A DNA stretch of 64,000 nucleotides from Dehalococcoidia bacterium (GCA_965248115.1 CBDFII010000004.1:465999-529998), one strand, 5' to 3'; shown: positions 23,320 through 54,177, counted from the stretch's first letter. Numbers and translations: made by a program. The notes: generated by a model not told the origin, from the sequence alone.

Positions 23320-23739
23320 TTAGCCGCCCTGAGTTGGGCGCCTTGCCCTGAGCCGCCACATCAGCACAGAGGCCATCAATACTGCCATGGCTATGAGACC
23401 CCACTGGGAGAGGGAGGGGATGGGAGTAGGAGTAGTGGTAGGTACAGGTGCGGCTGCCACTGAAAAGCACGCAGAGAACTCCGACGTATTGTTGTTTGGG
23501 TCGGTGGCTGTCGCTGTGATAAAATCGCCCACCCCCACCGTGGCTCCGAAGGTAGCTGTGAAGCTGGCATTGCCGTTTCCGTCGGTGGTTACATCCTTAA
23601 AGCCGAAGAAGGTCTCGCCCTCACCGTTGCCGGAAGGATCGCAGGCGCTGTTGGAGAAGAACTCCAGCCTGAACTGGGTGCTGGCCGTACTGTTAAGCGT
23701 GCCCTCGATGGTAGTGCTCCCACTCTCGGCAGAGGTCCT
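23320..23739 (-). pseudogene. C-terminal fragment of a beta-helix surface protein with IPTL-CTERM sorting tail (separated from its N-terminal part by the IS)
   Basis: The 3' part of track ORF 23320..24174 reads RTSAESGSTTIEGTLNST...FRLEFFSNSACDPSGNGEGE...TPTPIPSLSQWGLIAMAVLMASVLMWRLRARR. This is the IPTL-type motif, then a TM helix, then a basic tail. Confidence 0.65.
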
Positions 23740-23743
23740 TGAT

Positions 23744-37163: not shown

Positions 37164-38582
37164 TTGGCAGATAACGACATAGCCTTGATGGCGCACCTGC
37201 TGCGGCGTGCCGGCTTCGGGTCCACCAGAGACGAGCTTGAGGCCTACTGTGCCAAGGGGTACGAGGCCACCGTAGAGGAGCTACTTCACCCTGAGACCCG
37301 GCCTCCTGCCATTGAAGAAGACCTGGTGGGCCGGTACTTACCCGAGTTTTCGGACTTGGGAGCCTTCGAGTCCAGCAGAGGATATTGGATGTACCGGATG
37401 ATTAACACCAAGCGTCCTCTGGAGGAGAAGATCGCCCTCTTCTGGCACGGAGTCCTGTGCTCAGGCGACTCTAAGGTAGATTCCCCTAGAATGATGAGCA
37501 TTCAGGTAGACATGTTTCGCCAGCATGGCCTCGATAGCTTCCGCGATCTGCTGGTCAAGCTGTCCAGGAACCCCACCATGGTGTACTTCCTAGACAATAG
37601 CGAGAGCCACAAAAACGCTATCAACGAGAACTATGGGCGGGAGCTTTTGGAGCTCTTCTCCATGGGCGTGGGGATGGATGGCCACCCCAACTACACCGAG
37701 GACGACGTTAAGGCCTGTTCCCGTGCCTTCACCGGCTGGAACGTAGCTCCCACCCTTCCAGTATTCCCTTTTGGCCGCACCCCCTGGCAGTTCCTGTACA
37801 ACTACTCGGACCACGACGAGGGTGTGAAAACGTTCCTGGGAGAGACGGGACGCTGGAACGGCGAGGATGTCATCGACATCATCGCGCAGCAGCCAGCTAC
37901 CGCCCGGTTCGTCTGCCGTCACCTGTACAACTTCTTCGTGGCCGATGAGGTTCAGGTTCCAGCATGGCAGGACACACCACCCCAGGACCCCGAGGCGATA
38001 CGTACGCTGGAGAAGGCCTTCGTGGAGCACAACTACGATATCCGTTCGGTATTGCGGGTGCTGTTCAACTCCGACTTCTTCAAGGAGGCCCGTTTCGCCA
38101 AGGTCAAGAGCCCTGCAGAGGTGGTGGCGGGCACCATGCGGCTGGTCCAGGACTTTACCTCCCCCAAGTTTGGCCTCCACAACATCGCCATAGAGGACAC
38201 CTATATGGGTCAAACCCTGCTTAACCCCCCCAGCGTGGAGGGATGGCACACAGGCAGGGAGTGGATCGACAGCGGCACTCTGGTGGAGCGCATCAACTTC
38301 GTTGCTGACCAGGTGGGCAATACCGACTTACCCGGTGTGAAGGCTATCGTCGATCGCCTTGCTGCCCAGGGCGCCATGTCTCCCCAGCAGTTCGTGGAGA
38401 GCTGCCTTGACCTGATGGGCTGCGTGGAGGTCACCGAGAAGACCCGCGACCAGCTCATCTCCCACGCCACCCGGGCTGGCGAGCTGCGAGGGGATAGCGG
38501 AGAGCACAAAGAGCACTTCGCCTCCCAGGTGGGGGAGATGCTCCAGCTCATCGTGTCCACCGGCGAGTACCAGTTCGGATAA
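37164..38582 (+). CDS. DUF1800 family protein
   Basis: 472 aa. ALMAHLLRRAGFG, LFWHG, NENYGRELLELFSMG and SRAFTGW are DUF1800 hallmarks. No signal peptide. TTG start. Confidence 0.85.
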   Translation: MADNDIALMAHLLRRAGFGSTRDELEAYCAKGYEATVEELLHPETRPPAIEEDLVGRYLPEFSDLGAFESSRGYWMYRMINTKRPLEEKIALFWHGVLCSGDSKVDSPRMMSIQVDMFRQHGLDSFRDLLVKLSRNPTMVYFLDNSESHKNAINENYGRELLELFSMGVGMDGHPNYTEDDVKACSRAFTGWNVAPTLPVFPFGRTPWQFLYNYSDHDEGVKTFLGETGRWNGEDVIDIIAQQPATARFVCRHLYNFFVADEVQVPAWQDTPPQDPEAIRTLEKAFVEHNYDIRSVLRVLFNSDFFKEARFAKVKSPAEVVAGTMRLVQDFTSPKFGLHNIAIEDTYMGQTLLNPPSVEGWHTGREWIDSGTLVERINFVADQVGNTDLPGVKAIVDRLAAQGAMSPQQFVESCLDLMGCVEVTEKTRDQLISHATRAGELRGDSGEHKEHFASQVGEMLQLIVSTGEYQFG

Positions 38583-38601
38583 GCTAAAAGGAGGCACTTC
38601 C

Positions 38602-39735
38602 ATGGCATCCTCAAAGGACCCCGTCCTGGCGGTTATCTCCCTGGCGGGGGGTAACGATTTCATGAACACCATCATCCCCTACAACAATCCCCTGTATAGG
38701 GACTACCGCCCCAACCTGGGCATCCCCGAAGAGGAGATTCTGCCCATCGATGACCAGGTGGCCTTCAACCCCAACCTGGAGCCCCTCAAGGAGCTCTACG
38801 ATCAGGGTAAGGTGGCCATCATCCTGGGGGTGGGCTATCCCAACCCCAACCGCTCTCACTTCCGCTCCATGGACATATGGCAGACCTCGGAGCCCGACAA
38901 GGTAGGCACCGAGGGCTGGCTGGGCCGGGCCATTAGGGAGCTGGACCCCAACAAGGAGAATGTGCTCACGGGGGTCAACTTCGGCCGGGGCCTGCCCAGG
39001 GCCATGGCAGCACCGGGGGTACCCGTGGCCTCGGTGGGTAACCTGGCCACCTACGGCGTTCTCACCGGCATCGCCGGTGAGGAGCAGCGGGCCGAGGCCC
39101 TGGAGGTCTTCTCCCGTATGTATGCCCCCGCCATCGGCACAGGCCCGGTGATAGACTACCTGTGGCAGACGGGGATGGATGCCCTCAAGGGCGCCGATAT
39201 CCTGAAGACGGCCCCTGAGAAGTATACCTCCAATATAGAGTATGGCCCCGATGTGGTATCCCAGGGGCTCAAGGGCATGGCGCAGGTGCACACCGCCGAC
39301 CTGGGCTCCCGTATCCTCTTCACCACCTCTCCCAACAACGCCTTCGACACCCACGCCAACCAGGCCCCCATCCACACCATGCTGTGGCGTAACCTCTCCA
39401 GGGCCATCGCCGACTTCTACCAGGACCTGAAGGAGCACGACCACAACCAGGAGGTGACCCTCCTCATGTTCAGCGAGTTCGGGCGCCGGGCCAGGGACAA
39501 CGGCACGGGCACCGACCACGGCACGGGGGGTGTGGCCTTCGTCATCGGCGACCGGGTCAAGGGGGGACTGTACGGTGAGTACCCCTCTCTGGAGCAGGAC
39601 AAGCTGGAGGACGAGGGGGACCTGCTCCACAACGTAGATTTCCGCAGCATGTACTCCACCATTCTGGAGAGGGGGCTGGGTCTGGACCCAGTGCCCATCG
39701 TGGGGGGTAACTTCGAGCAGTTGGACTTTCTGTAG
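38602..39735 (+). CDS. DUF1501 family protein (sulfatase/alkaline-phosphatase-like fold)
   Basis: 377 aa. GGNDFMN, YPNPNRSHFRSMDIW, GWLGR, FDTHANQ and SEFGRR..DNGTGTDHG match DUF1501. It starts directly at the conserved core with no twin-arginine leader. Confidence 0.85.
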   Translation: MASSKDPVLAVISLAGGNDFMNTIIPYNNPLYRDYRPNLGIPEEEILPIDDQVAFNPNLEPLKELYDQGKVAIILGVGYPNPNRSHFRSMDIWQTSEPDKVGTEGWLGRAIRELDPNKENVLTGVNFGRGLPRAMAAPGVPVASVGNLATYGVLTGIAGEEQRAEALEVFSRMYAPAIGTGPVIDYLWQTGMDALKGADILKTAPEKYTSNIEYGPDVVSQGLKGMAQVHTADLGSRILFTTSPNNAFDTHANQAPIHTMLWRNLSRAIADFYQDLKEHDHNQEVTLLMFSEFGRRARDNGTGTDHGTGGVAFVIGDRVKGGLYGEYPSLEQDKLEDEGDLLHNVDFRSMYSTILERGLGLDPVPIVGGNFEQLDFL

Positions 39736-39946: not shown

Positions 39947-42150
39947 TCAGGCAGGCATCACCTCGGGCACTTCCTTGTCCCCAACCTGATCCACTTCAAC
40001 GCGAAAGTCGGGCAGCCATTCGAGCCACGAGGGCAGATACCAGTTCCACTTGCCCAGAAGCTTCATGGCGGCAGGCACCAGAACCATCCGGACGATGGTG
40101 GCGTCGAGGAGTATAGCGATCCCCAGGCCGAAGCCCATCTGCTGCAATCCGATTATGTCGCCAGCGGCAAAGGACCAAAACACAGCGACCATGATGAGGG
40201 CCGCTCCAGTGATGAGGCTCCCTGTGGATCGAATGCCGAAAGCCACCGAACCGGTGTTGTCCTGGGTCTGGTCGAAACGCTCCCGGATACGGCTGAGGAG
40301 AAAGACGTGATAGTCCATGGATAGGCCAAACAGGATGGCAAATTGTGTGAATATGCCCAGATCCTCACCCACGCCTTTCTGAAAGACAAGAACCAGGATT
40401 CCATAGGTCGCTCCCACGGAAAGTAGATTCAGTATAATGGCTTTAAGCGGCACGATAATTGATCGGAAAACGAGCATTAGCAAGAAGAAGCTTATGCCCA
40501 GGACGAAAGGGAATATATAGAACACGGCATTGTTGGCCGTGTCGAAGAAGTCCATGTTATATGCGGTCTCACCTGTGACACTTACTGTCGCAGGAACGCC
40601 TGCAAAGGCGGCAGGGACATACTCGCGGCGGAGTCTGCTGATAGCGGCTTTGGACTCATCCTCAGCGGAATCACCAGCTACCGGCACGGTAAGCAGCGCC
40701 ACAGTCCCGGCCTTGTTCACCTCCAGAGGAGCCGCCAAGGAGAATGCGTTGACTATGTCCGTCGCCATGGCCGCCTTTAGGCTCTCGATAGCCCCTTGCA
40801 CAGGCTGAGAGGCAATATCGCCCTCAATGACTATCTGCGCCGGCGTCACATTTCCCGCGGAGAATTTCGCGTCAAGAACATCGAAACCCTGCTTGGACCG
40901 CAGGTCGTCGGGCAGGTGCTGATCCCCTGGAAGCCTGTACTGAGATCGAAGGCGGGATAGGCAGCGGCGATAAGGAGACCTCCGGCCAGCAAAAGGCTAA
41001 TCACAGGCCGTCGCATGACTCCATGAGGAATCCTGTCCCAGAAGCCACCGGCGCTCTGCTCGTCGAATCTGGTCTGTGCCCTACCGATCCAAGGGATAGA
41101 CAGCCGATTGACCCCATCCCCCATGAGACTGAGTACAGCAGGCAGAAGGGTCATGGCGGCCGTTACTGAGGTGATCACCACCACAATAGCGCCGATGCCA
41201 AGACCGATAAAGACGTTGAAGGGTACCAACAACATGCCAATGAGGCCCAGAACCACGGCCATGCCACTGAAGAGGACGGCCCGGGTGGCCGTCCCCCCAG
41301 CCCGCCCGATCGCATCGATCTTCTCCAGGCCCCGGGCCCGCTCCTCCCGGTAACGGGCAACGATAAAGAGGGAGTAGTCGATGCCGACGGCGAGGCCGAT
41401 CATGAACATGATGTTTTGGACGAAAAAGGACAGCGCGAAGGCCTGTCCGACTATGGAGACAATCCCCATTGCAACGATGATGGAGACGACAGCCAGCACA
41501 ATGGGCACCAGCGCTGCCACCAGGGCCCCGAACACCACCACGAGAATGATGAGGGCAGCGGGCACTCCAAAGATCTCTCCCTTCTCGAGTCCCTCCTGAG
41601 CCACCTCCTGAAAGTCCTCACCAACAGTGGCCTGGCCGAATATCAGAACCTCGAAATCGCCCTGCTTATTGGCGTCCACTACCTCGAGGGCCTTGTGGAT
41701 GTTGTCTGTAGCGTCGTCGAAGTCTCCGGCCATAATGAGGGGCATAATGGTGGTGAGGCGGTCCTCTGAGACCAAGAAGGGGGCTCCTGTCTGATAATAA
41801 TTGATAAACGTTCCTTCTCTGATAATCTCGGGCCCCAACGCCGCAACTTTCCCATAGAAAGCCTCAACGAACTCTTGAAAAGCAGGGTCGTCAACGGTGA
41901 GGGTATCCGACTGGACGATGAGCACCTCGTTGGTGCTGAAGGGGAGGCCGCGCAACTCTACTATCAGGTCCACCCCACGCTGGGACTCGGGGGTGTTGGT
42001 GAAGACGAACTAGGTAGTGACAGCATCGTCAAAGAGGCTGGCAACGAGGCCGACAGCCACAACCACAATCAACACCCATATGCTGATGGTGGTCCATGGC
42101 CGTGTCGCGCATCGGCGAGTCAATGATTCAGAAGAGATCCCTAGCGCCAT
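39947..42150 (-). pseudogene. MMPL/RND-superfamily transporter, disrupted (in-frame TAG plus frameshift)
   Basis: An ATG at 42150 with an AGGAGGAGG RBS opens MALGISSESL...DDAVTT-TAG(42010..42012)-FVFTNTPESQRGVDLIVELRG, continuing into track ORF 40846..41973. Near 40915 the frame shifts (GIST | LPDDLRSKQGFDVLDAKFSAGNVTPAQIVIEGD) into ORF 39947..40849. Confidence 0.7.
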
Positions 42151-43222: not shown

Positions 43223-43744
43223 TCAAGACACACCTGCTGCCTGCAGGAACTCCTCTGCCGCCATCACGGTCCCCTGGCGAGGATATATCTTCTCTATCAG
43301 CACTCGGTGCACTTCTGGGTCTGGATCGCCACAGGCATCCCCTATCACCACCAGGTTGTAGTTGATATCGGCAGCCCAGCGTACAGTAGAGAGGACACAC
43401 CCGCTGGTGGATACTCCCATCAGAACCAGGGTATCCTTGCCCATCTCCCGTAGCAGCACATCCAAACCAGTAGTGGAGAAGGGGCTCGTCCTGGTCTTGG
43501 CAATTATACGATCCCCAGGGGATGGCGCCACGCCGGAGTGTATCTCTGTTCCAGAGGAAGGAGTCTCAAAGCGGCCACCCCGGTGGGTAACGTAGATTAC
43601 TGGAATCCCCACCTGCCGGGCCCCTTCTAGCACTTGGGATGCCCTCTGGATCACTTCCTTAGACACATTCTTCACAATGTCGTTCTGGTAGTCCATTATA
43701 ATGACCACTGTCCTGTCGCGATCCAGAGTCTGCTGCTGTGTCAT
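43223..43744 (-). CDS. Isochorismatase-family cysteine hydrolase
   Basis: 173 aa with V.I.MDYQNDIV, a conserved Lys region and the catalytic Cys context LVLMGVSTSGCVLSTVR. Confidence 0.8.
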   Translation of the reverse strand: MTQQQTLDRDRTVVIIMDYQNDIVKNVSKEVIQRASQVLEGARQVGIPVIYVTHRGGRFETPSSGTEIHSGVAPSPGDRIIAKTRTSPFSTTGLDVLLREMGKDTLVLMGVSTSGCVLSTVRWAADINYNLVVIGDACGDPDPEVHRVLIEKIYPRQGTVMAAEEFLQAAGVS

Positions 43745-45243: not shown

Positions 45244-46455
45244 TCATCGATACATAGATCGACGCCGTACAAAGGTCAGCAGCAGTGCGCCGACGCTGGC
45301 CAGGCCAGCCATCATCCACCAGCCCATGTCGTAGGAGCCAGTTCTATCCACAATGAGGCCAAATAAAGGGGGACCAAAGGCACCCGTTCGGGCAAAAATT
45401 GTCACAAAGCCGATACCCGTTCCAACGAGCTCTGGCTGTACCAGGCCAACCACCAGAGCCAGATACACCCCTGTCCATCCCAGGGCAGTAACCCCCAAGA
45501 ACGCGGCCAACACTCCTACTACTACCCCAGGTGCATCCGAGGGCAACCAAATCATTGAGATTGTACCCAGCATTGACAGCGCACATACCAGAGCTAAAAT
45601 CACTGCTGGACGTCCACCCAGTAGGTCGCTGATCAGACCCCAGAAAACACGCCCCACAACGCTGGCCGCAAAGGCTATAGCCAGAAAGCTCGCCGCCACA
45701 GACACAGACATGCCCAGCTTTTCTATTAGGAAGAGTATCAGGTAGCTTCCGACGACCAGGTATAAAGCCAGGAGGATAGCACTAGAGAAGCCAACTAACC
45801 AGATATCTCGGTCACTAGCCAGTGTCACTATACCTCTTATCAAGCTGGGCCTTCCCCCGCTGGTGCCGCTGTCAGGCTTATTCCGGTAAGAGGCGAAGAT
45901 CACCATACCTAGTACACCGACGATAAGGCCGAGGACCAGCACAGCAGTGCGCCAGCTATAGGCTGCTGCCAAAAATGGGAAGAGGGCTGCAGCAACAATT
46001 CCGCTAAGAGGTACACTCGTCTCCTTAATTCCCATAGATAGGCCGCGGGTCTGAGGTGTCACCCAATCCATGATGGCTTTAACGCTGGCGGGGGTAATCC
46101 CCGCAGTAGTTAGGCTTATCAAAAAGGCCAAAACAACGCCCTGATTTAGCGATTTGATCTGGGAAAAGAGAAGGAGCCCCGCAGTCATCGCCAGCAACCC
46201 CACACTTATGATTTTGCGTACGCCCATCCTATCCGCCAGCCATCCCATAATGAGAGTGGTACTGGTGGCACCCAAAAACAGCCCAGAGGTGATAAGGCCC
46301 AGCTGGGCGAGACTGGCCCCAAAGTCCTCCTTAATGAAGGGGAAGAGAATTGGCAGGCCCTGTTGTATGAAGCCCTCACCCATAGTTGCCAAAAGGGCAA
46401 GGACAACAACAATCCACGCATAGGGAATGGCCGACATAAGAGGAATCCGCATCAC
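45244..46455 (-). CDS. MFS transporter (paralog of 3937..5148)
   Basis: 403 aa, polytopic and colinear with the MFS at 3937..5148 over its whole length. Confidence 0.85.
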   Translation of the reverse strand: MMRIPLMSAIPYAWIVVVLALLATMGEGFIQQGLPILFPFIKEDFGASLAQLGLITSGLFLGATSTTLIMGWLADRMGVRKIISVGLLAMTAGLLLFSQIKSLNQGVVLAFLISLTTAGITPASVKAIMDWVTPQTRGLSMGIKETSVPLSGIVAAALFPFLAAAYSWRTAVLVLGLIVGVLGMVIFASYRNKPDSGTSGGRPSLIRGIVTLASDRDIWLVGFSSAILLALYLVVGSYLILFLIEKLGMSVSVAASFLAIAFAASVVGRVFWGLISDLLGGRPAVILALVCALSMLGTISMIWLPSDAPGVVVGVLAAFLGVTALGWTGVYLALVVGLVQPELVGTGIGFVTIFARTGAFGPPLFGLIVDRTGSYDMGWWMMAGLASVGALLLTFVRRRSMYR

Positions 46456-46540
46456 GGCGCTTTAAGTGCCCTTGGCTCTGTTAAGCTTACTTGTAGAGTT
46501 GCCACAAGTCGGGGAGCTACATAACTTTGGCTACAAGACT

Positions 46541-46570
46541 GAGTGGCGCCGGATTAATGCGGCGCCACTC
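46541..46570. repeat. 30-bp hairpin (11-bp perfect stem), palindromic element family member 2
   Basis: GAGTGGCGCCG-GATTAATG-CGGCGCCACTC lies between the NHL gene stop (46622) and the MFS start (46455) on the minus strand. It has the same ATTAATGCGGCG core as 39856..39887. Confidence 0.7.
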
Positions 46571-46621
46571 CTGTTCAGTAAAGTAGATATAGAGGCAGCC
46601 CCAATGCCATAGGCCAACCTC

Positions 46622-47605
46622 TTAGGAGCGTTTCTGGTACACCTGGAGGCGATCGCGATTACAGTCAATCACGACGATACGCCCCTCATCATCAACCTCA
46701 ACGGCATTGGGGTGCCAGAAGCTCTTCCAGGATGTCAAGTCCGGCACCAGGTCCATCTGTTTTGCCATGTCGGGGTTAGCGCTTAGTTGCGCTTGACCCC
46801 ATTTGGAGAGCACCCCATTCCCAGTGAAAATCGTAATGAACATGCCCTCAGGGGTGAACGCCTGTACCCTGTGATTAAGCCAGTCGGTGACATAGAAGTC
46901 TCCGTCTTTATCTACAGCCACATCTGTAGGACGGTTAAACTGGCCCATCTCCTTACCCGATGTGCCAAAGCTGGCCGTGAAAGTGCCGTCAGCTGTGAAC
47001 TTCTGAATACGGTCGTTACGCCAGTCGGCGACCCACACGTCGCCTTTCTTGTCTATGGTGAGGCCCCAAGGGAGGTTGAACTCTCCATCAGCGTTGCCTT
47101 GCCTACCCCACTTGGCCAGGAACTTCCCCTCTTTGTTGAACACCTCTATCCTGTTGTTGGCACTGTCCACCAGGTAGAGGTTGTCCTCCTTATCGAAGCA
47201 GAGACCTGTGGGCTTGTTTATCTCTCCATCGGCACTACCCTTTGAGCCCCAGTGGTCGAGAAAATTTCCCTGACCGTCGAAAATCGAGATACGGTTCAGG
47301 TAGTCGTCGCTAACATAGGCGTTCCCCTTGCTGTCCAGGGCAATGGAAGAGGGCCAGATGAATTGCCCTCTGCCGTCACCGTATCGGCCAAACTCGCTTA
47401 TATATTCCTCGTCCAAGGTGCAAATAGTCACCCGTACTCCCGTAGTTTCATACTCTGCCGAATGGTTAAGGACGTATATCTTCCCTCCCTCACCCAGGGC
47501 CAAGTCCACAGGATCTCTGAACCCTTGTCCCGATGCCCCGTTCCGCCCAATGGTGTGGCTGTACTTATATAGTCTCGTAGTTACACCAAAGAATACGCTA
47601 GCCAT
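46622..47605 (-). CDS. NHL-repeat beta-propeller protein
   Basis: 327 aa with six NHL-like blades (GQF..P..IA.D..GN.YV.D..N.RI..F). No signal peptide. Lies directly downstream of a DUF1800 gene. Confidence 0.8.
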   Translation of the reverse strand: MASVFFGVTTRLYKYSHTIGRNGASGQGFRDPVDLALGEGGKIYVLNHSAEYETTGVRVTICTLDEEYISEFGRYGDGRGQFIWPSSIALDSKGNAYVSDDYLNRISIFDGQGNFLDHWGSKGSADGEINKPTGLCFDKEDNLYLVDSANNRIEVFNKEGKFLAKWGRQGNADGEFNLPWGLTIDKKGDVWVADWRNDRIQKFTADGTFTASFGTSGKEMGQFNRPTDVAVDKDGDFYVTDWLNHRVQAFTPEGMFITIFTGNGVLSKWGQAQLSANPDMAKQMDLVPDLTSWKSFWHPNAVEVDDEGRIVVIDCNRDRLQVYQKRS

Positions 47606-47710
47606 CTTTACCTCCCCACCTTTTGATTATTGGCTTCCAGTGAAGATCGAACAGGGCTGAAAATATACCAACCTTCTCGTTCTGGGTCCCTATAAATGCT
47701 ACCTTCCAGC

Positions 47711-49126
47711 TTATCCGAACTGGTACTCGCCTGTGTCCACGATCAGCTGAAGTATCTCACCCACTTGATGGACAAACTTGTCTCGCTCGTCCTCGATGTC
47801 CCCTCGTAGCCCACCAACCCGGCTGGCGTGGGAGACCAACTGATTACGGGTCTTCTCGGTGACCTCCACATAGCCCATCAGGTCCAAACAGCCATCCACG
47901 AACTGCTCAGGGGTCAGAGCTCCTCGACTGGCCAGCCACTCAATGATGGAGCGGACACCGGGCAACTCGGTGTTGCCCACCTGGTCAGACACGAAGTTAA
48001 TACGCTCAACCAGGGTGCCGCTGTCGATCCACTCCATGCCCGTATGCCATCCCTCTACACTAGGTGGGTTGAGCAGGTCCTGGCCCATATAGAGGCACTC
48101 CTTCGAGAGAGGAAACATGCCAGGCTGGACATCGGTGTGATCCTTCATTAGACGAATAGTGCCCACTACGACCTCGGCGGGGCTCTTCACCTTAGCGAAG
48201 CGAGCCTTCTTAAAGAAGTTGGAGTTGAAGAGCACCCGCAGCACTGAGCGGATCTCGTAGTTGCTCTCTACGAAGGCCCTCTCCAGTGTATGGATGGCCT
48301 CGGGGTCCCGGGGTGGAGTTCCCTGCCATGATGGTACCTGAGGCTCGTCGTCCACAAAGAAGTTGTACAAGTGGCGACAGATAAACCTGGCAGTGGAGGG
48401 CTTACCCACAATGATCTCGATGACGTCCTCGCCGTTCCAGCGTCCTGTCTCCCCCAGGAATGTCTTCACACCCTCGTCGTGGTCCGTGGGGTTATAAAGG
48501 CACTGCCATGGAGTACGTCCAAAGGGGAGAGGTGGCGGGGTGGGGCTGATATTCCAGCCGGTAAAAGCACGAGAACATGCCTTAACATCGTCCTCGGTAT
48601 AGTTAGGGTGGTCATCCATACCCACACCCATTGAGAAGAGCTCCAAGAGCTCCCGTCCGTAGTTCTCGTTAATAGCCACCTTGTGGCTCTCGCTGTTATC
48701 CAGGTAATACAACATGGCGGGGTTCCGAGAAAGCTCCATCAATAGGTCGCGGAAGCTGCCTAGGCCGTGGCGACGGAACATATCTATCTGTCTTCTCATC
48801 ATACCGGGGTGGTCTACTTTGGCATCGCCCGAGCATAGAATTCCATGCCAGAAGAGGGCAATTTTCTCTTCCAGGGGACGCTTGGTACGTACCATCCGAT
48901 GTACCCAATACTGCTGGCTAGATTCAAAGGGCCCACAGTCACAATACTCAGGTAAGTAGCGTAACAACAAGTCATCCTCAGTGTGAGGCTGACTCTCTGG
49001 GTGGAGGAGCTCCTCTACTGTGACCTCGTACCCCTTGGCACAATAGGCCTCCAGCTCGCCTGGGGCAGCCCCGAAGCCAGCGCGCCGTATCAGATGTGCC
49101 ATCAAGGCCTTTTCGTTGTCTCCCAT
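47711..49126 (-). CDS. DUF1800 family protein
   Basis: Same hallmarks as 37164..38582, with which it shares roughly three quarters of positions by eye. The ATG at 49126 is preceded by GGAGGCGAGG and is preferred over the track start at 49174. Confidence 0.85.
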   Translation of the reverse strand: MGDNEKALMAHLIRRAGFGAAPGELEAYCAKGYEVTVEELLHPESQPHTEDDLLLRYLPEYCDCGPFESSQQYWVHRMVRTKRPLEEKIALFWHGILCSGDAKVDHPGMMRRQIDMFRRHGLGSFRDLLMELSRNPAMLYYLDNSESHKVAINENYGRELLELFSMGVGMDDHPNYTEDDVKACSRAFTGWNISPTPPPLPFGRTPWQCLYNPTDHDEGVKTFLGETGRWNGEDVIEIIVGKPSTARFICRHLYNFFVDDEPQVPSWQGTPPRDPEAIHTLERAFVESNYEIRSVLRVLFNSNFFKKARFAKVKSPAEVVVGTIRLMKDHTDVQPGMFPLSKECLYMGQDLLNPPSVEGWHTGMEWIDSGTLVERINFVSDQVGNTELPGVRSIIEWLASRGALTPEQFVDGCLDLMGYVEVTEKTRNQLVSHASRVGGLRGDIEDERDKFVHQVGEILQLIVDTGEYQFG

Positions 49127-49274
49127 CACCTCGCCTCCAATAGATCCAAGGAGCTTTGGATAGAGGGACGTCAACGGTTATCAATCTAGCGCTTGCAATT
49201 TCCCATGTCAAGGGAGCCAACCAGGATCCCCTTGTAGAGATGCTTGAGCCCACAGAGTGTGATCGGTGCTCTGG

Positions 49275-49790
49275 TCATCCTCTCCATTCAAAAGCCAGTG
49301 TGCCGAAGCGTACGAAGACAGCTCCACCGGGTGCAGCCAGGGGGCCATTGATCGCCAGCAAGGCGATGGTATGTCGATCCCCAGGCTGGGGGTCAACATT
49401 GACCACCACCCTTTGTACCACATTAAACCCCTGTATCGCACCTCGTTCGCGGTCACATTCGCCATCAATCCACACTTCGCCGTAGTCGTCGATGCAGGTC
49501 TCAAACAAACACCGTGTTCCTCGGACCTCTCTGCCCCGTACTGTTTCCGGGAGCGTTATGGTAGTGCGATACCAGGCGAAGGTTAGACCTCGAGAGTGCC
49601 ATTGAGTCAGATCCTCTGTCACATCCCAGCTAGAATCATCATAGTCTGCCAAGCGAGCCGGACTATCTGTCAACTGTGAGACCAAACCTTCGTTGGCTTC
49701 CCCTGGCACTAGACCTAGTGCAAAGCGCCACTGTCCTGAAACAATTTTCAAATCATCTGGGTCCTGGAGATTCAGCTGTACCCTTGACAT
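49275..49790 (-). CDS. Small galactose-binding-domain-like (GH2 N-terminal-like) beta-sandwich protein
   Basis: 171 aa starting at the ATG preceded by TAGGAGG. YDDSSWDV...W...G..FAWYRTTITLPE...G.R..L.F....DDYGEVWIDGE resembles the jelly-roll sugar-binding domain of GH2 enzymes. The longer track ORF (to 50075) overlaps the divergent DUF1800 gene. Confidence 0.55.
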   Translation of the reverse strand: MSRVQLNLQDPDDLKIVSGQWRFALGLVPGEANEGLVSQLTDSPARLADYDDSSWDVTEDLTQWHSRGLTFAWYRTTITLPETVRGREVRGTRCLFETCIDDYGEVWIDGECDRERGAIQGFNVVQRVVVNVDPQPGDRHTIALLAINGPLAAPGGAVFVRFGTLAFEWRG

Positions 49791-49968
49791 TAGGTTGCCT
49801 CCTAACGAAGAGAATTTGGGGCTATGATACATCAAGAGCGACTTCAGATAAATTCCTTGAGATACCATGGGACGTAAGGATTGACAGAGAATAGAGCTGC
49901 GAGTACCTTTAAGGTACCGTGTGGGCCGTCGAAACGAATCGGTACAGGCTAAAAGGGGAGGTACTAAG

Positions 49969-51375
49969 ATGGCCAACAATGATATAGCCTTGATGGCACA
50001 CCTGATGCGCCGAGCTGGCTTCGGAGCAAAGCGTGACGAGTTGGAGGAGCGAGTGGCCAAGGGGTACGAAGCCACGGTGGAGGAGCTGCTGCATCCTGAA
50101 AACGCGTCCCCAGCGGACGAGCATATCCTCCAAAGGTACCACCCACCTGCTATGTTTCCCGGTAGTGTTTCCCCTACTTACAACATGCACTGGATGTTCT
50201 ACATGCTAAATACGGAACGCCTCCTAGAGGAGAAGATTGCCCTGTTCTGGCATCAGGTGTTCGCCACCGGAAACGCCAAAGTGGACAATGGCATCGACAT
50301 ACTGAAACAAATAGCCATGTTCCGGCGCTACGGATTGGGTAGCTTCCGGGAGCTGCTGACCGAGCTAGCTAAAAACCCCGCTATGATCTTTTGGCTGGAC
50401 AATAACGAGAACCACAAGTACGCGGTCAACGAGAACTGGGGCCGAGAGCTGCTGGAGCTGTTCTCCATGGGTGTGGGCAACTACACCGAGGTGGATGTAA
50501 GAGAGGCCTCCCGGGCCTTCACAGGCTGGACCATGATCGCCAGGGTGCCCCGTTACCCCTATTCCCGCTCCCCCTGGCCAGGATTCGAGTATAAAGTGGA
50601 GGACCATGACTACGCCGAGAAAAGGTTTTTGGGCCACGAAGGCCGTTTCAACGGCGAGGATATTATCGACATCATCGTCCAGCAGCCCGCCTGCGCACGC
50701 TTTATCGCTCGCCACCTCTACAACTTCTTCGTGGCCGACGAGCCACAGGTACCGAGCTGGTCCATCGATCCACCTAGAGATCCCGAAGCTCTAAACACCC
50801 TGACGACGGCTTTCATCGAGTCTAATTACGAGATTCGGGCAGTGCTACGTACTCTTTTCAACTCCGACTTCTTCAAAGAGGCTCGCTTTGCCAAGGTGAA
50901 GAGTCCCACCGAGGTAGCTGTAAGCACCTATAAGCTAGTAGGCGGGCATAACTTTCCCAGGCCAGGCTTCGGAGAGCTGTCCATGCAACCCACCTACATG
51001 GGCCAGGAGATCCTCAACCCACCCAGTGTAGAGGGCTGGCATACAGGCCAGGAGTGGATAAACAGCGGCTCCCTAATGAGCCGTGTCAATTTTGTCGCCG
51101 ATCTGGTGGGTGACATCAGCCTACCAGGCGTCCAATCCATCATTAACCGGCTTAGAATCCAGGGAGAGCTCTCACCCGAGACGCTGGTCGATGGCTGTTT
51201 GGATATGCTAGGCCCATTGGATGTAGAGCCTAAGACCCGCCAACACTTGATCGAGCAAGCTACAGAGGGTAGCATCCTGCACTGGGACACCGAAGAGGAA
51301 GTTAGTGATTCCGAAAAGAAGATCGCTGAGATGCTGCAGCTGATAGTCGCTACCAGGGAATACCAGTTCGCTTAG
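49969..51375 (+). CDS. DUF1800 family protein
   Basis: MANNDIALMAHLMRRAGFG..., LFWHQ, NENWGRELLELFSMG and SRAFTGW. The ATG at 49969 is preceded by GGGGAGG. Confidence 0.85.
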   Translation: MANNDIALMAHLMRRAGFGAKRDELEERVAKGYEATVEELLHPENASPADEHILQRYHPPAMFPGSVSPTYNMHWMFYMLNTERLLEEKIALFWHQVFATGNAKVDNGIDILKQIAMFRRYGLGSFRELLTELAKNPAMIFWLDNNENHKYAVNENWGRELLELFSMGVGNYTEVDVREASRAFTGWTMIARVPRYPYSRSPWPGFEYKVEDHDYAEKRFLGHEGRFNGEDIIDIIVQQPACARFIARHLYNFFVADEPQVPSWSIDPPRDPEALNTLTTAFIESNYEIRAVLRTLFNSDFFKEARFAKVKSPTEVAVSTYKLVGGHNFPRPGFGELSMQPTYMGQEILNPPSVEGWHTGQEWINSGSLMSRVNFVADLVGDISLPGVQSIINRLRIQGELSPETLVDGCLDMLGPLDVEPKTRQHLIEQATEGSILHWDTEEEVSDSEKKIAEMLQLIVATREYQFA

Positions 51376-51393
51376 GGAATAGGGGCGAAAAGG

Positions 51394-52413
51394 ATGCTTA
51401 CAACTATAGCGGCAGGACGAGTATACAATTTTAGTCATGCAGTGGGTCGCAACCAGCAGACGGGCACGGGGTTTCATTGGCCAACAGCGCTAGCTCTAGG
51501 CCCGGACGGGGTAGTATACGTAGTCAGCCGGGGTAATGAAACCAACTTCGGTACACGAGTGAGCAAGCTCACCTTGTGGCCTCCTGGCGAGGAAGAATTA
51601 ATATGTGAGTTCGGTACTTATGGTGAGATGGATGGGCAGTTGATTTGGCCTACCTCTTTGACCCTGGACATGGAAGGAAACCTCTACGTCTCTGACGAGT
51701 GGCTTAACCGAATTTCCATCTTTGATCAGGATGGCACTTTCCTGGAGAAATGGGGCACATCGGGAACTAGCATCGGAGGGTTAAATGGTCCCTCTGGCTT
51801 AGCTTTGGATAAGGAAGAAAACCTATACGTTGTCGACAGTTTTAGCAATCGTGTCCAAAAGTTCACCAAAGACGGCACCTTTTTGGCTAAGTTCGGCGAA
51901 GAGGGGAGCGGTGAAGGACAGTTCGACATGCCGTGGGGCATTACCATCGACAACAAGGGCGATGTGTACGTGGGCGATTGGAAAAATCACCGAGTGCAAA
52001 AGTTCTCCTCCGAGGGCACCTTCCTGACGAGCTTCGGCACATTCGGGACAGGAGTAGGAGAGCTTAACCACCCAACCGATGTGGCCGTTGACGATGAGGG
52101 GGATGTATACGTGTGCGACTGGGATAACGACCGTGTCCAGATATTTGCGCCCGATGGAGATGTCATCACATCCCTCATTGGAGATGCTCAGCAGCTCTCC
52201 AAGTGGGGCAAGGAAAAACTGGATGTGAATCCAGACATAGTTATGGCTCGACGGAGGCTCAAGAGCCTTGAACCTGAATGGCGGTTCTGCCATCCTTCGG
52301 GAGTGGCCTTTGACCAGACTGAGAACCGCATCGTAGTGGTTGACTGTCAACGGAGCCGCCTCCAGATATACATCAAGGATAAGGACTACGTGGACCCCCA
52401 GTTCAACTTGTAG
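51394..52413 (+). CDS. NHL-repeat beta-propeller protein
   Basis: 339 aa. Starts 18 nt after the DUF1800 stop. Closely resembles 859..1980 (N-terminal GRVYNFSHAVGR, C-terminal RLQIYIKDKDYVDPQFNL). Confidence 0.8.
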   Translation: MLTTIAAGRVYNFSHAVGRNQQTGTGFHWPTALALGPDGVVYVVSRGNETNFGTRVSKLTLWPPGEEELICEFGTYGEMDGQLIWPTSLTLDMEGNLYVSDEWLNRISIFDQDGTFLEKWGTSGTSIGGLNGPSGLALDKEENLYVVDSFSNRVQKFTKDGTFLAKFGEEGSGEGQFDMPWGITIDNKGDVYVGDWKNHRVQKFSSEGTFLTSFGTFGTGVGELNHPTDVAVDDEGDVYVCDWDNDRVQIFAPDGDVITSLIGDAQQLSKWGKEKLDVNPDIVMARRRLKSLEPEWRFCHPSGVAFDQTENRIVVVDCQRSRLQIYIKDKDYVDPQFNL

Positions 52414-52450
52414 CCCCCCGCACCAATTCAAATCGAAAAAGGTCCTTGAT

Positions 52451-54099
52451 GAGCCTGTCTCAGAAGTCTGATCTGGCAATGGGTATGTCGTCAGGTGTAG
52501 CTTCGAAGCGAGATCAATTGGGGGGATACTGATATGCCGCTTCGACCGATGGGCCGAGAGCAGATGTGGATGTTGCCGCCGACGCTTGACGAGTTGTTGC
52601 CGTTGGATCATCCGGCGCGGTTCGTCGCCGAGTTCGTCGATGCTCTGGGTCGAGATGCCTGGGCGGAGCTTGGCGTGGACATAGACGGGGAGGTCCTGGG
52701 AGCGCCAGCCTACCATCCCCGTGCACTGTTGAGTGTATGGCTGTACGGCTTCATGACCGGTGTGCGCTCCTGCCGGAAGCTGGAGGCGGCCTGCCGCGAC
52801 CAGATTCCGTACCTGTGGTTGACCGGGTGGCAGCATCCCGATCACAACACTCTGTGGCGGTTCTACAAAGGGCATCGGCACGCCATGAGGAAGCTGTTCG
52901 AGCGCTCGGTGCGCACGGCAGTGGCCATGGCGTTGGTGGATCTAGCGGTGCAGGCCGTGGACGGGACGAAGGTGGTAGCCAACGCCTCAGTGAACAGGAG
53001 CTATGATGCTGTGGGCCTGAGTGGTCTGTTGGAGCGTCTCGAGAAGGCGATAGCCGACCTTGAGGCACAGAACGAAGGGGGAGAGGATGCTCCTGTTGCC
53101 CATCTGCCAAAAGAGTTAGCCGACAAGGAGGTCTTGAGGGACCGGGTGAGGCAGGCGATGGCCGACCTCGGGAGTCAGAAGCGCCACAAGCGGATCAACC
53201 TGACCGACCCGGAGGCCCGACTGATGAAGGGCAGGCAGGGGATCGTGGCCGGCTACAACGCCCAGGCTATGGTCTCACCCATGGAGATCGATGGAGAAGC
53301 GGCCGGCATGGTGGTCACAGCCGTGGACGTGGTTGATGCGGCCAATGACAATGCCCTGCTGGTGCCGATGGTCGAGCAGGCGGAGGAGACGACCGGGACG
53401 AGGGTGCCGATGACATTGGCCGACGCTGGCTACTTCGCCGTGAGCCACCTAGCGGAGTGCGACCGGCGAGGCCAGCAGGTGGTGGTGTCAGAAGCACGGC
53501 AGCGGTTCCTCACAGACGCGTATCACAAGGACCGATTCACCTATGACGAGCAAAGCGACAGTTTTACGTGTCCACAGGGACGGAGGCTCAAGTTCCTTCG
53601 CATCCAACATACGAATGGAGTTCCGCTGCGTCTGTACCGGGCCTCTGGAGCCGTCTGCCAGGCGTGCCCGGCCTTCGGAGTCTGTACGAGAGCCCGCGAG
53701 ACCGGCCGCAGTCTGGCGATAGGGCCCCATGACGGAGTGCTACGCCGCCACCGCGCCTGGAGGACCACGTTAGCCGCCAAAGAGGCGTACCGGCTGAGAA
53801 AGCAGCTGGTCGAGCCGGTCTTCGGAATCATCAAGGAACAACAGAGGGCACGTAGGTTCCTGCTGCGTGGCCTCGCCAACGTGGCGGCCGAGTGGACCAT
53901 GTTGGCCACCGCCTTCAACCTGCGCACCCTCTACCGGGTGTGGAGCTCCTCCCTCCATCTTCAACCCTCTACCTGACGGTCTGGAACCTTGTCATGTCTC
54001 GTGAGCTGAGGCCATTGACAGCTATCCCTCACCCCATCGTCTGCGTAATACTTCGCGTCGGAGTACGCCTGCCAACGGACGTCATTCTGAGACAGGCTC
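52451..54099 (+). mobile_element. IS element copy 2 (IS1182/IS5-like), 1649 bp, flanked by a 4-bp direct repeat TGAT
   Basis: Same 15-bp terminal inverted repeats as copy 1. TGAT occurs at 52447..52450 and 54100..54103. Inserted 37 nt downstream of the NHL gene stop. Confidence 0.85.
52534..53976 (+). CDS. IS1182/IS5-family DDE transposase
   Basis: 480 aa. Identical to the copy-1 protein except for one residue (A versus V in GYN(A/V)QAM). Confidence 0.85.
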   Translation: MPLRPMGREQMWMLPPTLDELLPLDHPARFVAEFVDALGRDAWAELGVDIDGEVLGAPAYHPRALLSVWLYGFMTGVRSCRKLEAACRDQIPYLWLTGWQHPDHNTLWRFYKGHRHAMRKLFERSVRTAVAMALVDLAVQAVDGTKVVANASVNRSYDAVGLSGLLERLEKAIADLEAQNEGGEDAPVAHLPKELADKEVLRDRVRQAMADLGSQKRHKRINLTDPEARLMKGRQGIVAGYNAQAMVSPMEIDGEAAGMVVTAVDVVDAANDNALLVPMVEQAEETTGTRVPMTLADAGYFAVSHLAECDRRGQQVVVSEARQRFLTDAYHKDRFTYDEQSDSFTCPQGRRLKFLRIQHTNGVPLRLYRASGAVCQACPAFGVCTRARETGRSLAIGPHDGVLRRHRAWRTTLAAKEAYRLRKQLVEPVFGIIKEQQRARRFLLRGLANVAAEWTMLATAFNLRTLYRVWSSSLHLQPST

Positions 54100-54177
54100 T
54101 GATATATACTAATACTCGAACTCGGTTTTCAGCAGATTTGGTTTATAAGATATGAAGACCCTTAGCGAAGTCATTCC

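What the first reader, a model, noticed from the sequence alone, without database searches (positions are those of the whole stretch)
45244..52413. Recurrent DUF1800 + NHL beta-propeller gene pair (three copies in 64 kb) in place of the canonical DUF1800 + DUF1501 pair: a candidate undescribed two-component module
DUF1800 is normally found next to DUF1501, and that pair is present at 37164..39735. In this window three other DUF1800 paralogs (2..754, 47711..49126 minus, 49969..51375) are each followed within 18-105 nt by a leaderless six-bladed NHL protein instead (859..1980, 46622..47605 minus, 51394..52413). The DUF1800 partnered with DUF1501 and the one at 47711 are very similar, roughly three quarters identical by eye. 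The partner therefore appears to have been swapped on a conserved DUF1800 scaffold. Two pairs face each other divergently across a small GH2-like beta-sandwich gene (49275..49790), and one pair continues into an MFS transporter. Neither DUF1800 nor this NHL subfamily has a known function.
Basis: partly seen in the sequence, partly recalled or inferred. Interest (0 to 1): 0.68.

Follow-up and report, generated by a model that had tools for sequence, protein, structure and literature searches.

The report
Reduced copies of a three-gene operon
The repeated DUF1800 + NHL-propeller gene pairs are real and under selection, but they are trimmed copies of a widespread, highly conserved three-gene operon of unknown function (DUF1800, DUF1501, NHL), not a swap of one partner for another.

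Summary
The window has four DUF1800 genes: three are followed within 18-105 nt by a leaderless six-bladed NHL protein, and one by a leaderless DUF1501. The paralogs are old (42-75% identical) and under purifying selection (dN/dS 0.07-0.17).

The "partner swap" reading does not hold. In 165 related loci from at least four phyla and from metagenome contigs (many probably soil), this DUF1800 subfamily almost always sits in a three-gene operon, DUF1800>DUF1501>NHL. I found 113 intact triads, and the three proteins co-diverge (r about 0.9). DUF1800>NHL pairs are a polyphyletic minority derived from triads.

The window's DUF1800_D+DUF1501 and DUF1800_B+NHL_B match, gene for gene, one intact triad in a close relative. 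They are complementary partial copies of it. The A and C pairs belong to a pair-only clade that multiplied in this Dehalococcoidia lineage, while DUF1501 stayed at about one copy per contig.

Outside Dehalococcoidia, the triad often sits next to an Irr/PerR-like Fur-family regulator and carries a conserved ICE-like operator. DUF1800 gives a confident AlphaFold model with no Foldseek match among solved structures.

The function is unknown. My inference is a cytoplasmic metalloenzyme system built around DUF1501. The literature I could search notes only that the three COGs co-vary in SAR202.

The parts
2..754 (+). DUF1800_A: C-terminal 250 aa of a DUF1800 gene cut by the window start (pair A)
   Evidence: Pfam PF08811 148 bits. 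62% identical to DUF1800_C.
859..1980 (+). NHL_A: leaderless six-bladed NHL propeller, 373 aa, with an insertion of about 30 aa between blades 4 and 5 (pair A)
   Evidence: Pfam NHL 127 bits. 51% identical to NHL_C. Alignment A1.
2538..3845 (+). MFS transporter downstream of pair A. Lineage-specific neighbour, not part of the conserved core.
   Evidence: Pfam MFS_1 152.7 bits.
3937..5148 (+). MFS transporter, paralog (55%) of the one downstream of pair B
   Evidence: ORF.
37164..38582 (+). DUF1800_D: triad-type DUF1800, followed after 19 nt by DUF1501
   Evidence: Pfam 339 bits. 81% identical to the DUF1800 of an intact triad in L168. Sister to DUF1800_B in the tree.
38602..39735 (+). DUF1501: leaderless, 377 aa, the only copy in the window. 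No NHL gene follows it here.
   Evidence: Pfam PF07394 80 bits. 93% identical to the middle gene of the intact triad in L167. dN/dS 0.10. No NHL remnant downstream.
45244..46455 (-). MFS transporter downstream of NHL_B (gap 166 nt)
   Evidence: Pfam MFS_1 151.5 bits. Sub-threshold NCBIfam matches to sugar-acid and organophosphate transporters. Syntenic in L002.
46622..47605 (-). NHL_B: triad-type NHL propeller, 327 aa (pair B)
   Evidence: Pfam NHL 131 bits. 70-73% identical to the NHL of the L167/L168 triads, against 52% to pair-type NHLs. dN/dS 0.08 against the L002 ortholog.
47711..49126 (-). DUF1800_B: triad-type DUF1800 (pair B). The start at 49126 is supported by a GGAGG site 7 nt upstream.
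   Evidence: Pfam 340 bits. 74.8% identical to DUF1800_D. 76-78% identical to the triad DUF1800 of L167/L168. Sequence.
49275..49790 (-). Small 171-aa protein upstream of DUF1800_B on the same strand. Lineage-specific.
   Evidence: 81% identical ortholog in L002, dN/dS 0.17. Seen only in L002/L003 among the loci screened for it. Weak GH2_N match, E 0.014.
49969..51375 (+). DUF1800_C: pair-type DUF1800 (pair C). Divergent from the small gene across 178 nt.
   Evidence: Pfam 333 bits. 87-88% ortholog in L002. 74% identical to the pair in L168. AlphaFold model pLDDT 92.9. dN/dS 0.07.
51394..52413 (+). NHL_C: pair-type NHL propeller, 339 aa, 18 nt after DUF1800_C
   Evidence: Pfam NHL 135 bits. 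86% ortholog in L002. dN/dS 0.12.

Best explanation
SHOWN.
- The three DUF1800+NHL pairs and the DUF1800+DUF1501 pair are partial copies of one conserved, leaderless (cytoplasmic) three-gene operon, DUF1800>DUF1501>NHL.
- That operon is found in Dehalococcoidia, Entotheonella/Tectomicrobia, Nitrospinota, Alphaproteobacteria and in metagenome contigs, many probably from soil.
- Its three proteins co-diverge and are unusually conserved.
- Triads have repeatedly lost DUF1501 to give DUF1800>NHL pairs.
- In the window, loci D (DUF1800+DUF1501) and B (DUF1800+NHL) are complementary remnants of one triad type. Pairs A and C belong to a pair-only clade.
- By a proxy count, that clade multiplied in this lineage while DUF1501 stayed at about one copy per contig.
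- All copies are under purifying selection.

INFERRED.
- The three proteins work together as one cytoplasmic enzyme system.
- DUF1501 is the metal-dependent catalytic subunit. It has an alkaline-phosphatase-superfamily-like pattern of invariant residues: Asp19, Ser85, Asp249/His251, Asp305/His306, His343.
- DUF1800 is its obligatory all-alpha partner, with an invariant polar cluster and no Foldseek match among solved structures.
- The NHL propeller is a substrate-binding or second processing subunit.
- In this lineage the multiplied DUF1800-NHL sub-modules sit in catabolic islands next to MFS importers. They probably diversify substrate range and use the single DUF1501 in trans.
- Where the operon is single-copy, it appears to be controlled by an Irr/PerR-type Fur-family regulator. 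That ties the ancestral role to iron or peroxide status.
For: Architecture:
- 66 of 96 NHL genes in loci L001-L085 sit in triads and 15 in pairs.
- From the DUF1800 side, 54 of 57 informative metagenome loci are triads and 3 are pairs. None has DUF1800>DUF1501 with room for an NHL gene but no NHL.
- There are 113 intact triads. Pairwise-identity matrices of the three proteins correlate at r = 0.90-0.91. Mean pairwise identity is 66% (DUF1800), 64% (DUF1501) and 54% (NHL).

Derivation of pairs:
- Pair-type DUF1800 genes fall at seven or more places among triad-type ones.
- They keep 131 of the 168 columns that are at least 90% conserved in triad-type genes.
- Intact triads in relatives (L167, L168) match the window's DUF1501 at 93%, DUF1800_D at 79-81%, DUF1800_B at 76-78% and NHL_B at 70-73%.
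- In every case where more than one locus of a genome or contig was available, pairs coexist with DUF1501: the genome behind L006/L021/L058, L007, L064, L168 and the window.

Selection: dN/dS is 0.07-0.17 for all genes tested.

Unequal expansion: among the top 120 hits, a 1.07-Mb contig carries 14 NHL, 11 DUF1800 and 1 DUF1501.

Regulation:
- A Fur-family gene lies directly upstream in 17 of 54 informative non-Dehalococcoidia loci.
- One of these regulators passes the NCBIfam IrrA and Irr cut-offs. The others score best, below threshold, as PerR.
- All 9 ICE-like motifs found in 3.7 Mb lie 249-361 nt upstream of a DUF1800 start and abut a TTGAC -35-like hexamer. The ICE consensus is taken from PMC1698941.

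Cytoplasmic location: the ORFs start directly in the domain, whereas distant DUF1800 relatives carry Tat- or Sec-type leaders.

Fold: the DUF1800 model has pLDDT 92.9, and Foldseek against PDB finds nothing (best E 0.27, TM at most 0.21).
Against: - No biochemical or structural evidence links the three proteins physically. No multimer prediction could be run.
- Alkaline-phosphatase-superfamily membership of DUF1501 rests on my recollection of the Pfam clan and on a residue pattern. A profile comparison with sulfatases was not significant, and PDB sequence searches found nothing.
- The closest solved NHL relatives are binding domains (TRIM71, Thin, PknD), not enzymes.
- The window has no Fur-family gene and no ICE-like site near these genes, so the regulatory link may not apply here.
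- Orphan NHL genes exist and are still under selection (L002, L166). NHL may therefore work without a cis partner, or alone.
- Copy numbers per contig come from top-120 hit lists, with contig length used as a proxy for contig identity. They are not a genome census.
Confidence: 0.6

Rival explanations
1. First reader's reading. DUF1800+NHL is a distinct two-component module in which NHL has replaced DUF1501 on a conserved DUF1800 scaffold.
For: Three such pairs lie in 64 kb. Pair-type modules recur in other Dehalococcoidia and in metagenomes. They have multiplied without a matching increase in DUF1501.
Against: NHL normally follows DUF1501 rather than replacing it. Triads dominate from both the NHL side and the DUF1800 side. 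Pair-type DUF1800 genes are polyphyletic inside triad-type clades. NHL_B is orthologous to the third gene of a triad whose DUF1501 is 93% identical to the window's.
Confidence: 0.12
2. The pairs descend from triads but have become autonomous. DUF1800+NHL performs a function that no longer needs any DUF1501, for example binding or lyase/lactonase-type chemistry on imported organic acids.
For: Pairs are under strong purifying selection. A pair-only clade expanded many-fold while DUF1501 did not. Pairs sit beside MFS importers, oxidoreductases and hydrolases. NHL proteins score above the Pfam cut-off for the SGL lactonase-like family (47-49 bits against 26.3).
Against: Pair-type DUF1800 keeps nearly all triad-type conserved residues. 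Every genome or contig with more than one sampled locus also has DUF1501. The SGL hits overlap the NHL repeats and are clan-level similarity only.
Confidence: 0.22
3. The partial copies are decaying remnants of duplicated triads on the way to pseudogenes, in a genome with active insertion sequences.
For: Stepwise loss is visible: triad (L167/L168), then pair (window B), then orphan NHL (L002). Transposases flank many copies. L004 carries a frameshifted DUF1800 and a fragmented NHL.
Against: All window copies are intact full-length ORFs, and the starts I read have ribosome-binding sites. dN/dS is 0.07-0.17 at dS of about 0.4-1.3.
Confidence: 0.04
4. The NHL proteins are eukaryote-like repeat proteins used in host interaction (as proposed for sponge symbionts), and their position next to DUF1800 is incidental.
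For: Relatives occur in Entotheonella and other lineages that I know, from my own knowledge, to be associated with sponges. The closest solved structures are animal TRIM-NHL domains.
Against: The proteins have no export signal. The same operon occurs in contigs whose names suggest soil and free-living marine bacteria. NHL co-diverges with DUF1800 and DUF1501 at r about 0.9.
Confidence: 0.02

Closest known systems
Canonical DUF1800-DUF1501 two-gene operon of Proteobacteria and PVC bacteria (uncharacterised; DUF1501 Tat-exported)
   Same: Same two Pfam families, same gene order and close spacing (locus D: 19-nt gap). The pair is reported as a co-transferred operon in PMC5122149.
   Different: Here both proteins lack any leader, whereas distant DUF1800 relatives carry Tat- or Sec-type leaders. 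A third gene, an NHL propeller, is an almost constant member. The subfamily is far more conserved, at about 65% identity across phyla.
Co-expansion of COG3391 (NHL/YncE-like), COG4102 (DUF1501) and COG5267 (DUF1800) in SAR202 Chloroflexi (Saw et al. 2020, PMC6946804)
   Same: Same three families and same bacterial group. The paper notes that their abundances co-vary and calls them uncharacterised.
   Different: As far as I read it, the paper reports a correlation of COG counts only, with no operon, derived pairs, regulator link or distribution outside SAR202. Those are established here.
Planctomycete PSD1/DUF1553 (PSCyt) proteins paired with DUF1501
   Same: DUF1800 gives weak sub-threshold hits to PSD1 and PSD2 (16-18 bits). 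From my own knowledge, those proteins are also encoded next to DUF1501 and are multiplied many-fold per genome.
   Different: The Pfam hits are below threshold, so homology is not established here. The planctomycete proteins are exported and carry cytochrome-like domains that are absent here.
NHL beta-propellers with solved structures (TRIM71, Thin, TRIM2/3, PknD sensor, PAL)
   Same: Six-bladed NHL propeller. The profile matches Thin (E 2e-81) and TRIM71 NHL domains (E about 1e-73), PknD (E 1e-30) and PAL (E 2e-20).
   Different: Stand-alone cytoplasmic protein with a subfamily-specific conserved N-terminus, a conserved insert of about 37 aa between blades 5 and 6, and a conserved C-terminal ...PQFNL tail. 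It has no RING/B-box, kinase or PHM domain.
Irr/ICE iron-responsive regulon of Alphaproteobacteria
   Same: An adjacent regulator passes the NCBIfam IrrA and Irr cut-offs. A conserved TTTRGAA-N3-TTCTNAN site lies upstream of DUF1800 and resembles the ICE consensus TTTRGAAYNRTTCYAAA (PMC1698941).
   Different: The sites differ from the consensus at 2-3 positions in the right half. Binding has not been tested. This feature is absent from the window and from most Dehalococcoidia loci.

Membership tests
DUF1800 (PF08811) | Match to the Pfam model above the gathering score over the whole domain | tested here: met
   333-340 bits over profile positions 1-418 for B, C and D. 148 bits for the truncated A. 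Cut-off 26.1.
NHL-repeat six-bladed beta-propeller (PF01436) | Repeated NHL motifs that make up six blades | tested here: met
   127-135 bits with four scored repeats. Six blade motifs are readable in the sequence and in alignment A1. Matches the Thin (E 2e-81) and TRIM71 NHL domains.
DUF1501 (PF07394) | Match to the Pfam model above the gathering score | tested here: met
   80 bits against a cut-off of 27. Only the C-terminal part aligns for the window protein; a relative aligns over positions 4-379.
DUF1501 (PF07394) | Twin-arginine (Tat) export signal, typical of the family | tested here: not met
   The ORF starts at the first start codon after a stop, with MASSKDPVLAVISLAGGND..., directly in the first strand. 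There is no RR motif and no room for a leader.
Alkaline-phosphatase superfamily (for DUF1501) | Shared fold with a conserved metal-ligand and nucleophile constellation | tested here: inconclusive
   Invariant D19, S85, D249/H251, D305/H306 and H343 in alignment A3 fit the pattern. hhalign against sulfatases gave 0.3% probability. PDB sequence searches found nothing. The clan assignment is from my memory.
Canonical DUF1800-DUF1501 pair | The two genes adjacent on the same strand, DUF1800 first | tested here: met
   37164..38582 followed by 38602..39735, with a 19-nt gap.
Leaderless DUF1800>DUF1501>NHL triad (defined here) | All three genes in this order in one locus | tested here: not met
   No window locus has all three genes. 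A, B and C lack DUF1501, and D lacks NHL.
Leaderless DUF1800>DUF1501>NHL triad (defined here) | Orthology of the window genes to members of intact triads | tested here: met
   Against the L167/L168 triads: DUF1501 93%, DUF1800_D 79-81%, DUF1800_B 76-78%, NHL_B 70-73%. All DUF1800 copies nest within the subfamily tree.
Enzymatic six-bladed propellers (SGL lactonases, Vgb lyase, PAL) | Catalytic metal-binding residues in the central channel | not tested
   SGL scores 47-49 bits (cut-off 26.3) and Vgb_lyase is below its cut-off. These overlap the NHL repeats. No NHL model was made, so active-site geometry was not examined.
Irr/ICE-regulated operons | ICE-type operator upstream and an Irr regulator present | tested here: not met
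   This applies to the window: no Fur-family gene and no ICE-like site near the DUF1800 genes. The feature is met in nine related loci.
Anti-phage defence systems (PADLOC) | Match to a defence-protein model | tested here: not met
   The only hit is a weak NHL-repeat match to PD-T4-6 (E 3e-6). DUF1800, DUF1501 and the small protein have none.

The most novel reading that the evidence does not exclude
DUF1800, DUF1501 and this NHL propeller form a previously unrecognised cytoplasmic three-subunit metalloenzyme. It is ancestrally switched by iron or peroxide status through Irr/PerR-type regulators, and one subunit (DUF1800) has a fold with no solved relative. In SAR202-like Dehalococcoidia the DUF1800-NHL specificity sub-module has been multiplied many-fold around a single shared DUF1501 catalytic subunit, giving a modular system for attacking diverse recalcitrant organic substrates.
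Probability: 0.25. Interest if true: 0.78.

Novelty: new variant of a known kind. Interest (0 to 1): 0.55.

Why it matters
DUF1800 and DUF1501 are very large families with no assigned function. The DUF1800 profile alone finds 17,576 50%-identity clusters.

The leaderless triad is a good entry point for working out what they do:
- It has three co-inherited genes and extreme conservation across phyla.
- It has a recognisable regulator and operator in culturable Alphaproteobacteria.
- It gives a confident DUF1800 model.

For marine carbon cycling, these three families are among the most expanded in SAR202 (PMC6946804). Knowing that they form one operon, and that the DUF1800-NHL part can multiply independently, turns an unexplained correlation into testable hypotheses: a shared catalytic subunit with diversified specificity modules.

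Tried and rejected
- **First DUF1800 model.** AlphaFold with a shallow alignment (all sequences at least 58% identical) gave pLDDT 55 and was discarded. A diverse alignment fixed this.
- **PDB sequence and profile searches.** DUF1800 and DUF1501 gave nothing significant.
- **Sulfatase comparison.** hhalign of DUF1501 against sulfatases from neighbouring loci was not significant.
- **Domain fusions.** The ten longest DUF1800 representatives have no informative extra domains.
- **Promoter/terminator scan of 45.0-52.7 kb.** Promoter-like sites were no more frequent than expected; terminator-like sites (11 against 6.1 ± 2.7 expected) were somewhat more frequent, but none lies between a DUF1800 gene and its NHL partner.
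- **Source contig.** Look-ups for the window's own contig failed.
- **Leader RNA.** Rfam found no family in the conserved leader upstream of Irr-linked triads. RNAalifold gave almost no covariation.
- **Defence system.** Rejected.
- **ICE-like sites in the window.** None near the genes.
- **Surface loss in pair-type DUF1800.** Only 3 columns differ strongly from triad-type, so there is no lost patch.

Full report
**1. Observation**

- Pfam assigns DUF1800 to 2..754 (cut by the window start), 47711..49126(-), 49969..51375 and 37164..38582. Full-length copies score 333-340 bits.
- Pfam assigns NHL repeats (127-135 bits) to 859..1980, 46622..47605(-) and 51394..52413, and DUF1501 (80 bits) to 38602..39735.
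- Gaps are 104, 105 and 18 nt (DUF1800 to NHL) and 19 nt (DUF1800 to DUF1501).
- DUF1800_B and DUF1800_D are 74.8% identical. Other DUF1800 pairs are 52-62% identical and NHL pairs 42-52%. The copies are therefore old.
- Each ORF begins at the first start codon after a stop, directly in the domain. The starts I read (small gene, DUF1800_B, DUF1800_C, NHL_B) have a GGAGG ribosome-binding site; NHL_C has a weaker AAGG. The proteins have no leader.
- More distant DUF1800 relatives do carry Tat- or Sec-type leaders.
- No other copies of these families are in the window.

**2. What the pairing really is**

The first contexts I looked up for NHL homologs showed a different arrangement. In a Nitrospinae MAG and in another genome the order is Fur-family regulator, DUF1800, DUF1501, NHL.

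I then scanned one genome per species with an NHL alignment and classified every NHL gene in loci L001-L085 by tblastn. Of 96 NHL genes:

| Arrangement | NHL genes |
|---|---|
| In a DUF1800>DUF1501>NHL triad (median gaps 61 and 116 nt) | 66 |
| In a DUF1800>NHL pair | 15 |
| Second NHL directly after a triad | 4 |
| Cut by a contig end | 6 |
| Other | 5 |

One of the 15 pairs (L064) is followed by a DUF1501, giving the order DUF1800>NHL>DUF1501.

The hosts are Dehalococcoidia, Entotheonella/Entotheonellaceae, Nitrospinota and several alphaproteobacterial families.

A metagenome scan from the DUF1800 side removes the bias of starting from NHL. Of 57 loci with enough sequence, 54 are triads and 3 are pairs. 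None has DUF1800>DUF1501 with room for an NHL gene but no NHL.

Across all loci there are 113 intact triads.

- The pairwise-identity matrices of the three proteins correlate at r = 0.90-0.91.
- Mean pairwise identity is 66% (DUF1800), 64% (DUF1501) and 54% (NHL).

This is a co-inherited and strongly constrained unit.

**3. How the window's pairs arose**

- In a neighbour-joining tree of 86 DUF1800 proteins, those followed by NHL fall at seven or more separate places among those followed by DUF1501. DUF1501 has therefore been lost from the operon repeatedly.
- A close relative of the window organism (ENA sample ERZ25067264) carries intact triads. Their genes match the window as follows:

| Window gene | Identity to the L167/L168 triad genes |
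|---|---|
| DUF1501 | 93% |
| DUF1800_D | 79-81% |
| DUF1800_B | 76-78% |
| NHL_B | 70-73% |

- Loci D and B are therefore complementary partial copies of one triad type. D kept DUF1800+DUF1501, and B kept DUF1800+NHL.
- Pair C (and A) belongs to a pair-only clade. It is 74% and 71% identical to a pair that lies next to a triad in L168, and 86-88% identical to the syntenic pair in L002.
- In L002 the ortholog of NHL_B directly follows the small protein, with no DUF1800_B. Erosion can therefore continue to an orphan NHL that is still under selection.
- dN/dS is 0.07-0.17 for every gene tested, so these are not pseudogenes.
- Pair-type DUF1800 keeps 131 of the 168 columns that are at least 90% conserved in triad-type genes.

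**4. Lineage-specific multiplication**

I counted paralogs per contig among the best 120 homologs of each query.

| Contig | NHL | DUF1800 | DUF1501 |
|---|---|---|---|
| 1.07 Mb | 14 | 11 | 1 |
| 380 kb | 9 | 6 | 1 |
| 788 kb | 4 | 6 | 1 |

- The DUF1501 on the 788-kb contig is 100% identical to the window's.
- The counts use contig length as a proxy for contig identity. They are not a census, but they agree with the window (three pairs, one DUF1501).
- They also agree with the published note that COG3391, COG4102 and COG5267 are among the most abundant and co-varying COGs in SAR202 (PMC6946804).

**5. Clues to function**

*Location.* None of the three proteins has a leader, so the system is cytoplasmic.

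*DUF1501.*
- It has invariant D19, S85, D249/H251, D305/H306 and H343.
- This pattern resembles the two-metal, Ser-nucleophile sites of the alkaline-phosphatase superfamily.
- From memory, Pfam places DUF1501 in that clan. My own test was inconclusive.

*DUF1800.*
- With a diverse alignment it gives a confident, mostly helical model: pLDDT 92.9 and pTM 0.92.
- Foldseek finds no relative among solved structures (best E 0.27).
- Across the whole family it keeps many invariant polar residues: E88, H95, D144, N154-E155-N156, R159, E160, E163, D176 and H213-D214.
- This suggests a binding or catalytic site rather than a plain scaffold.

*NHL.*
- Its closest solved relatives are TRIM-type binding propellers and the PknD sensor domain. 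PAL is more distant.
- The subfamily has its own conserved N-terminus, an insert between blades 5 and 6, and a C-terminal PQFNL tail.

*Regulation outside Dehalococcoidia.*
- The most frequent neighbour is a Fur-family regulator. It lies directly upstream in 17 of 54 informative loci.
- A Rhizobium example passes the NCBIfam cut-offs for IrrA and Irr. The others score best, below threshold, as PerR.
- The motif TTTRGAA-N3-TTCTNAN occurs nine times in 3.7 Mb of fetched sequence. Every occurrence lies 249-361 nt upstream of a DUF1800 start and 2-3 nt before a TTGAC hexamer.
- It resembles the Irr operator ICE, TTTRGAAYNRTTCYAAA (PMC1698941).
- Three related metagenome loci instead have a Fur-box-like TTTTCATAATAATAATTATCA.
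- An operator abutting the -35 hexamer suggests repression by Irr in low iron. That is an inference.

*The window itself.* It has no Fur-family gene and no such site. Here the pairs lie among MFS importers, a GFO/IDH/MocA oxidoreductase, an isochorismatase-family hydrolase, alpha/beta hydrolases and luciferase-like oxidoreductases.

**6. Best explanation and rivals**

The architecture and history are well supported: a triad as the ancestral unit, with pairs as derived, selected partial copies.

The mechanism is inferred:
- DUF1501 is the catalytic metallo-subunit.
- DUF1800 is its constant partner.
- NHL is a substrate-binding or processing subunit.
- The multiplied DUF1800-NHL sub-modules diversify specificity and use the remaining DUF1501 in trans.

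The main rival is that pairs have become independent of DUF1501. I cannot exclude this. The swap hypothesis, decay to pseudogenes, host-interaction proteins and anti-phage defence are each contradicted by specific results.

**7. Novelty**

- Searches of the paper library found no functional study of DUF1800 or DUF1501.
- No paper combines either family with NHL, apart from the COG correlation in SAR202.
- The DUF1800-DUF1501 pair is a known but uncharacterised kind of operon (PMC5122149).
- The leaderless, NHL-containing and regulator-linked form, and its reduced pair derivatives, are a new variant of it.

Noticed in passing
window 23733..25393 and 52440..54100: Two copies of a 1661-bp IS1182-family element, 99.9% identical and in the same orientation (transposase ORFs 23827..25269 and 52534..53976). 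The second begins 27 nt after the NHL_C stop. At that position the closest relative (L002) has a DUF6787 gene instead.
   Followed up: partly
window 39947..41973 (-): An MMPL-family transporter is split into two adjacent ORFs (300 and 375 aa) directly downstream of the DUF1501 gene. In the relative L002 the region is broken into at least four pieces. It is probably a pseudogene.
   Followed up: no
L002 6727..8391 compared with window 46622..49790: The closest relative lacks DUF1800_B altogether. The small 171-aa gene is followed after 165 nt by the NHL_B ortholog (88% identical, dN/dS 0.08), so an orphan NHL is maintained.
   Followed up: partly
L019 5038, L025 2263, L103 4631, L110 565, L111 578, L117 678, L121 4734, L123 1559, L127 1763: A conserved ICE-like operator plus -35/-10-like promoter is followed by a 250-360-nt leader before DUF1800. 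The leader has a conserved segment of about 60 nt (GTCGGCTCGGCCGC...CGCGACCGCCCGTTCC...GAGGGACGGATGGCG). Rfam finds no family, and there is almost no covariation support for a structure.
   Followed up: partly
L086, L087, L088: intergenic region between the Fur-family gene and DUF1800: A Fur-box-like sequence, TTTTCATAATAATAATTATCA, is conserved in three related metagenome loci about 250 nt upstream of DUF1800.
   Followed up: no
L064 11405..14989: A variant gene order, DUF1800>NHL>DUF1501, lies on the same contig as a normal triad.
   Followed up: no
window 859..1980 (NHL_A); also P0106 and the alphaproteobacterial NHLs (about 364 aa): There is an insertion hot-spot of 20-35 aa between blades 4 and 5 of the NHL propeller. 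The inserted sequences differ between lineages.
   Followed up: no
L004/L005 downstream of NHL; L061, L066, L068, L077, L081, L084: Some neighbours recur downstream of the triad in particular lineages. These are a ferredoxin plus a CMD/AhpD-like protein in one lineage, an isochorismatase-family hydrolase plus a GMC oxidoreductase in a Dehalococcoidia subgroup, and an unannotated 110-aa protein in another subgroup. The window also has an isochorismatase-family gene, at 43223..43744.
   Followed up: partly
(PMC12981691): Two DUF1800 proteins of Entotheonella (W4LJC4, W4LDN1) were among the more abundant proteins in an arsenic/barium-mineralising vesicle fraction. I did not check whether they belong to the triad subfamily.
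   Followed up: no
window 3937..5148 and 45244..46455: Two MFS paralogs, 55% identical, each lie downstream of a DUF1800-NHL pair. The duplicated unit in this lineage may therefore have been DUF1800-NHL-MFS.
   Followed up: partly
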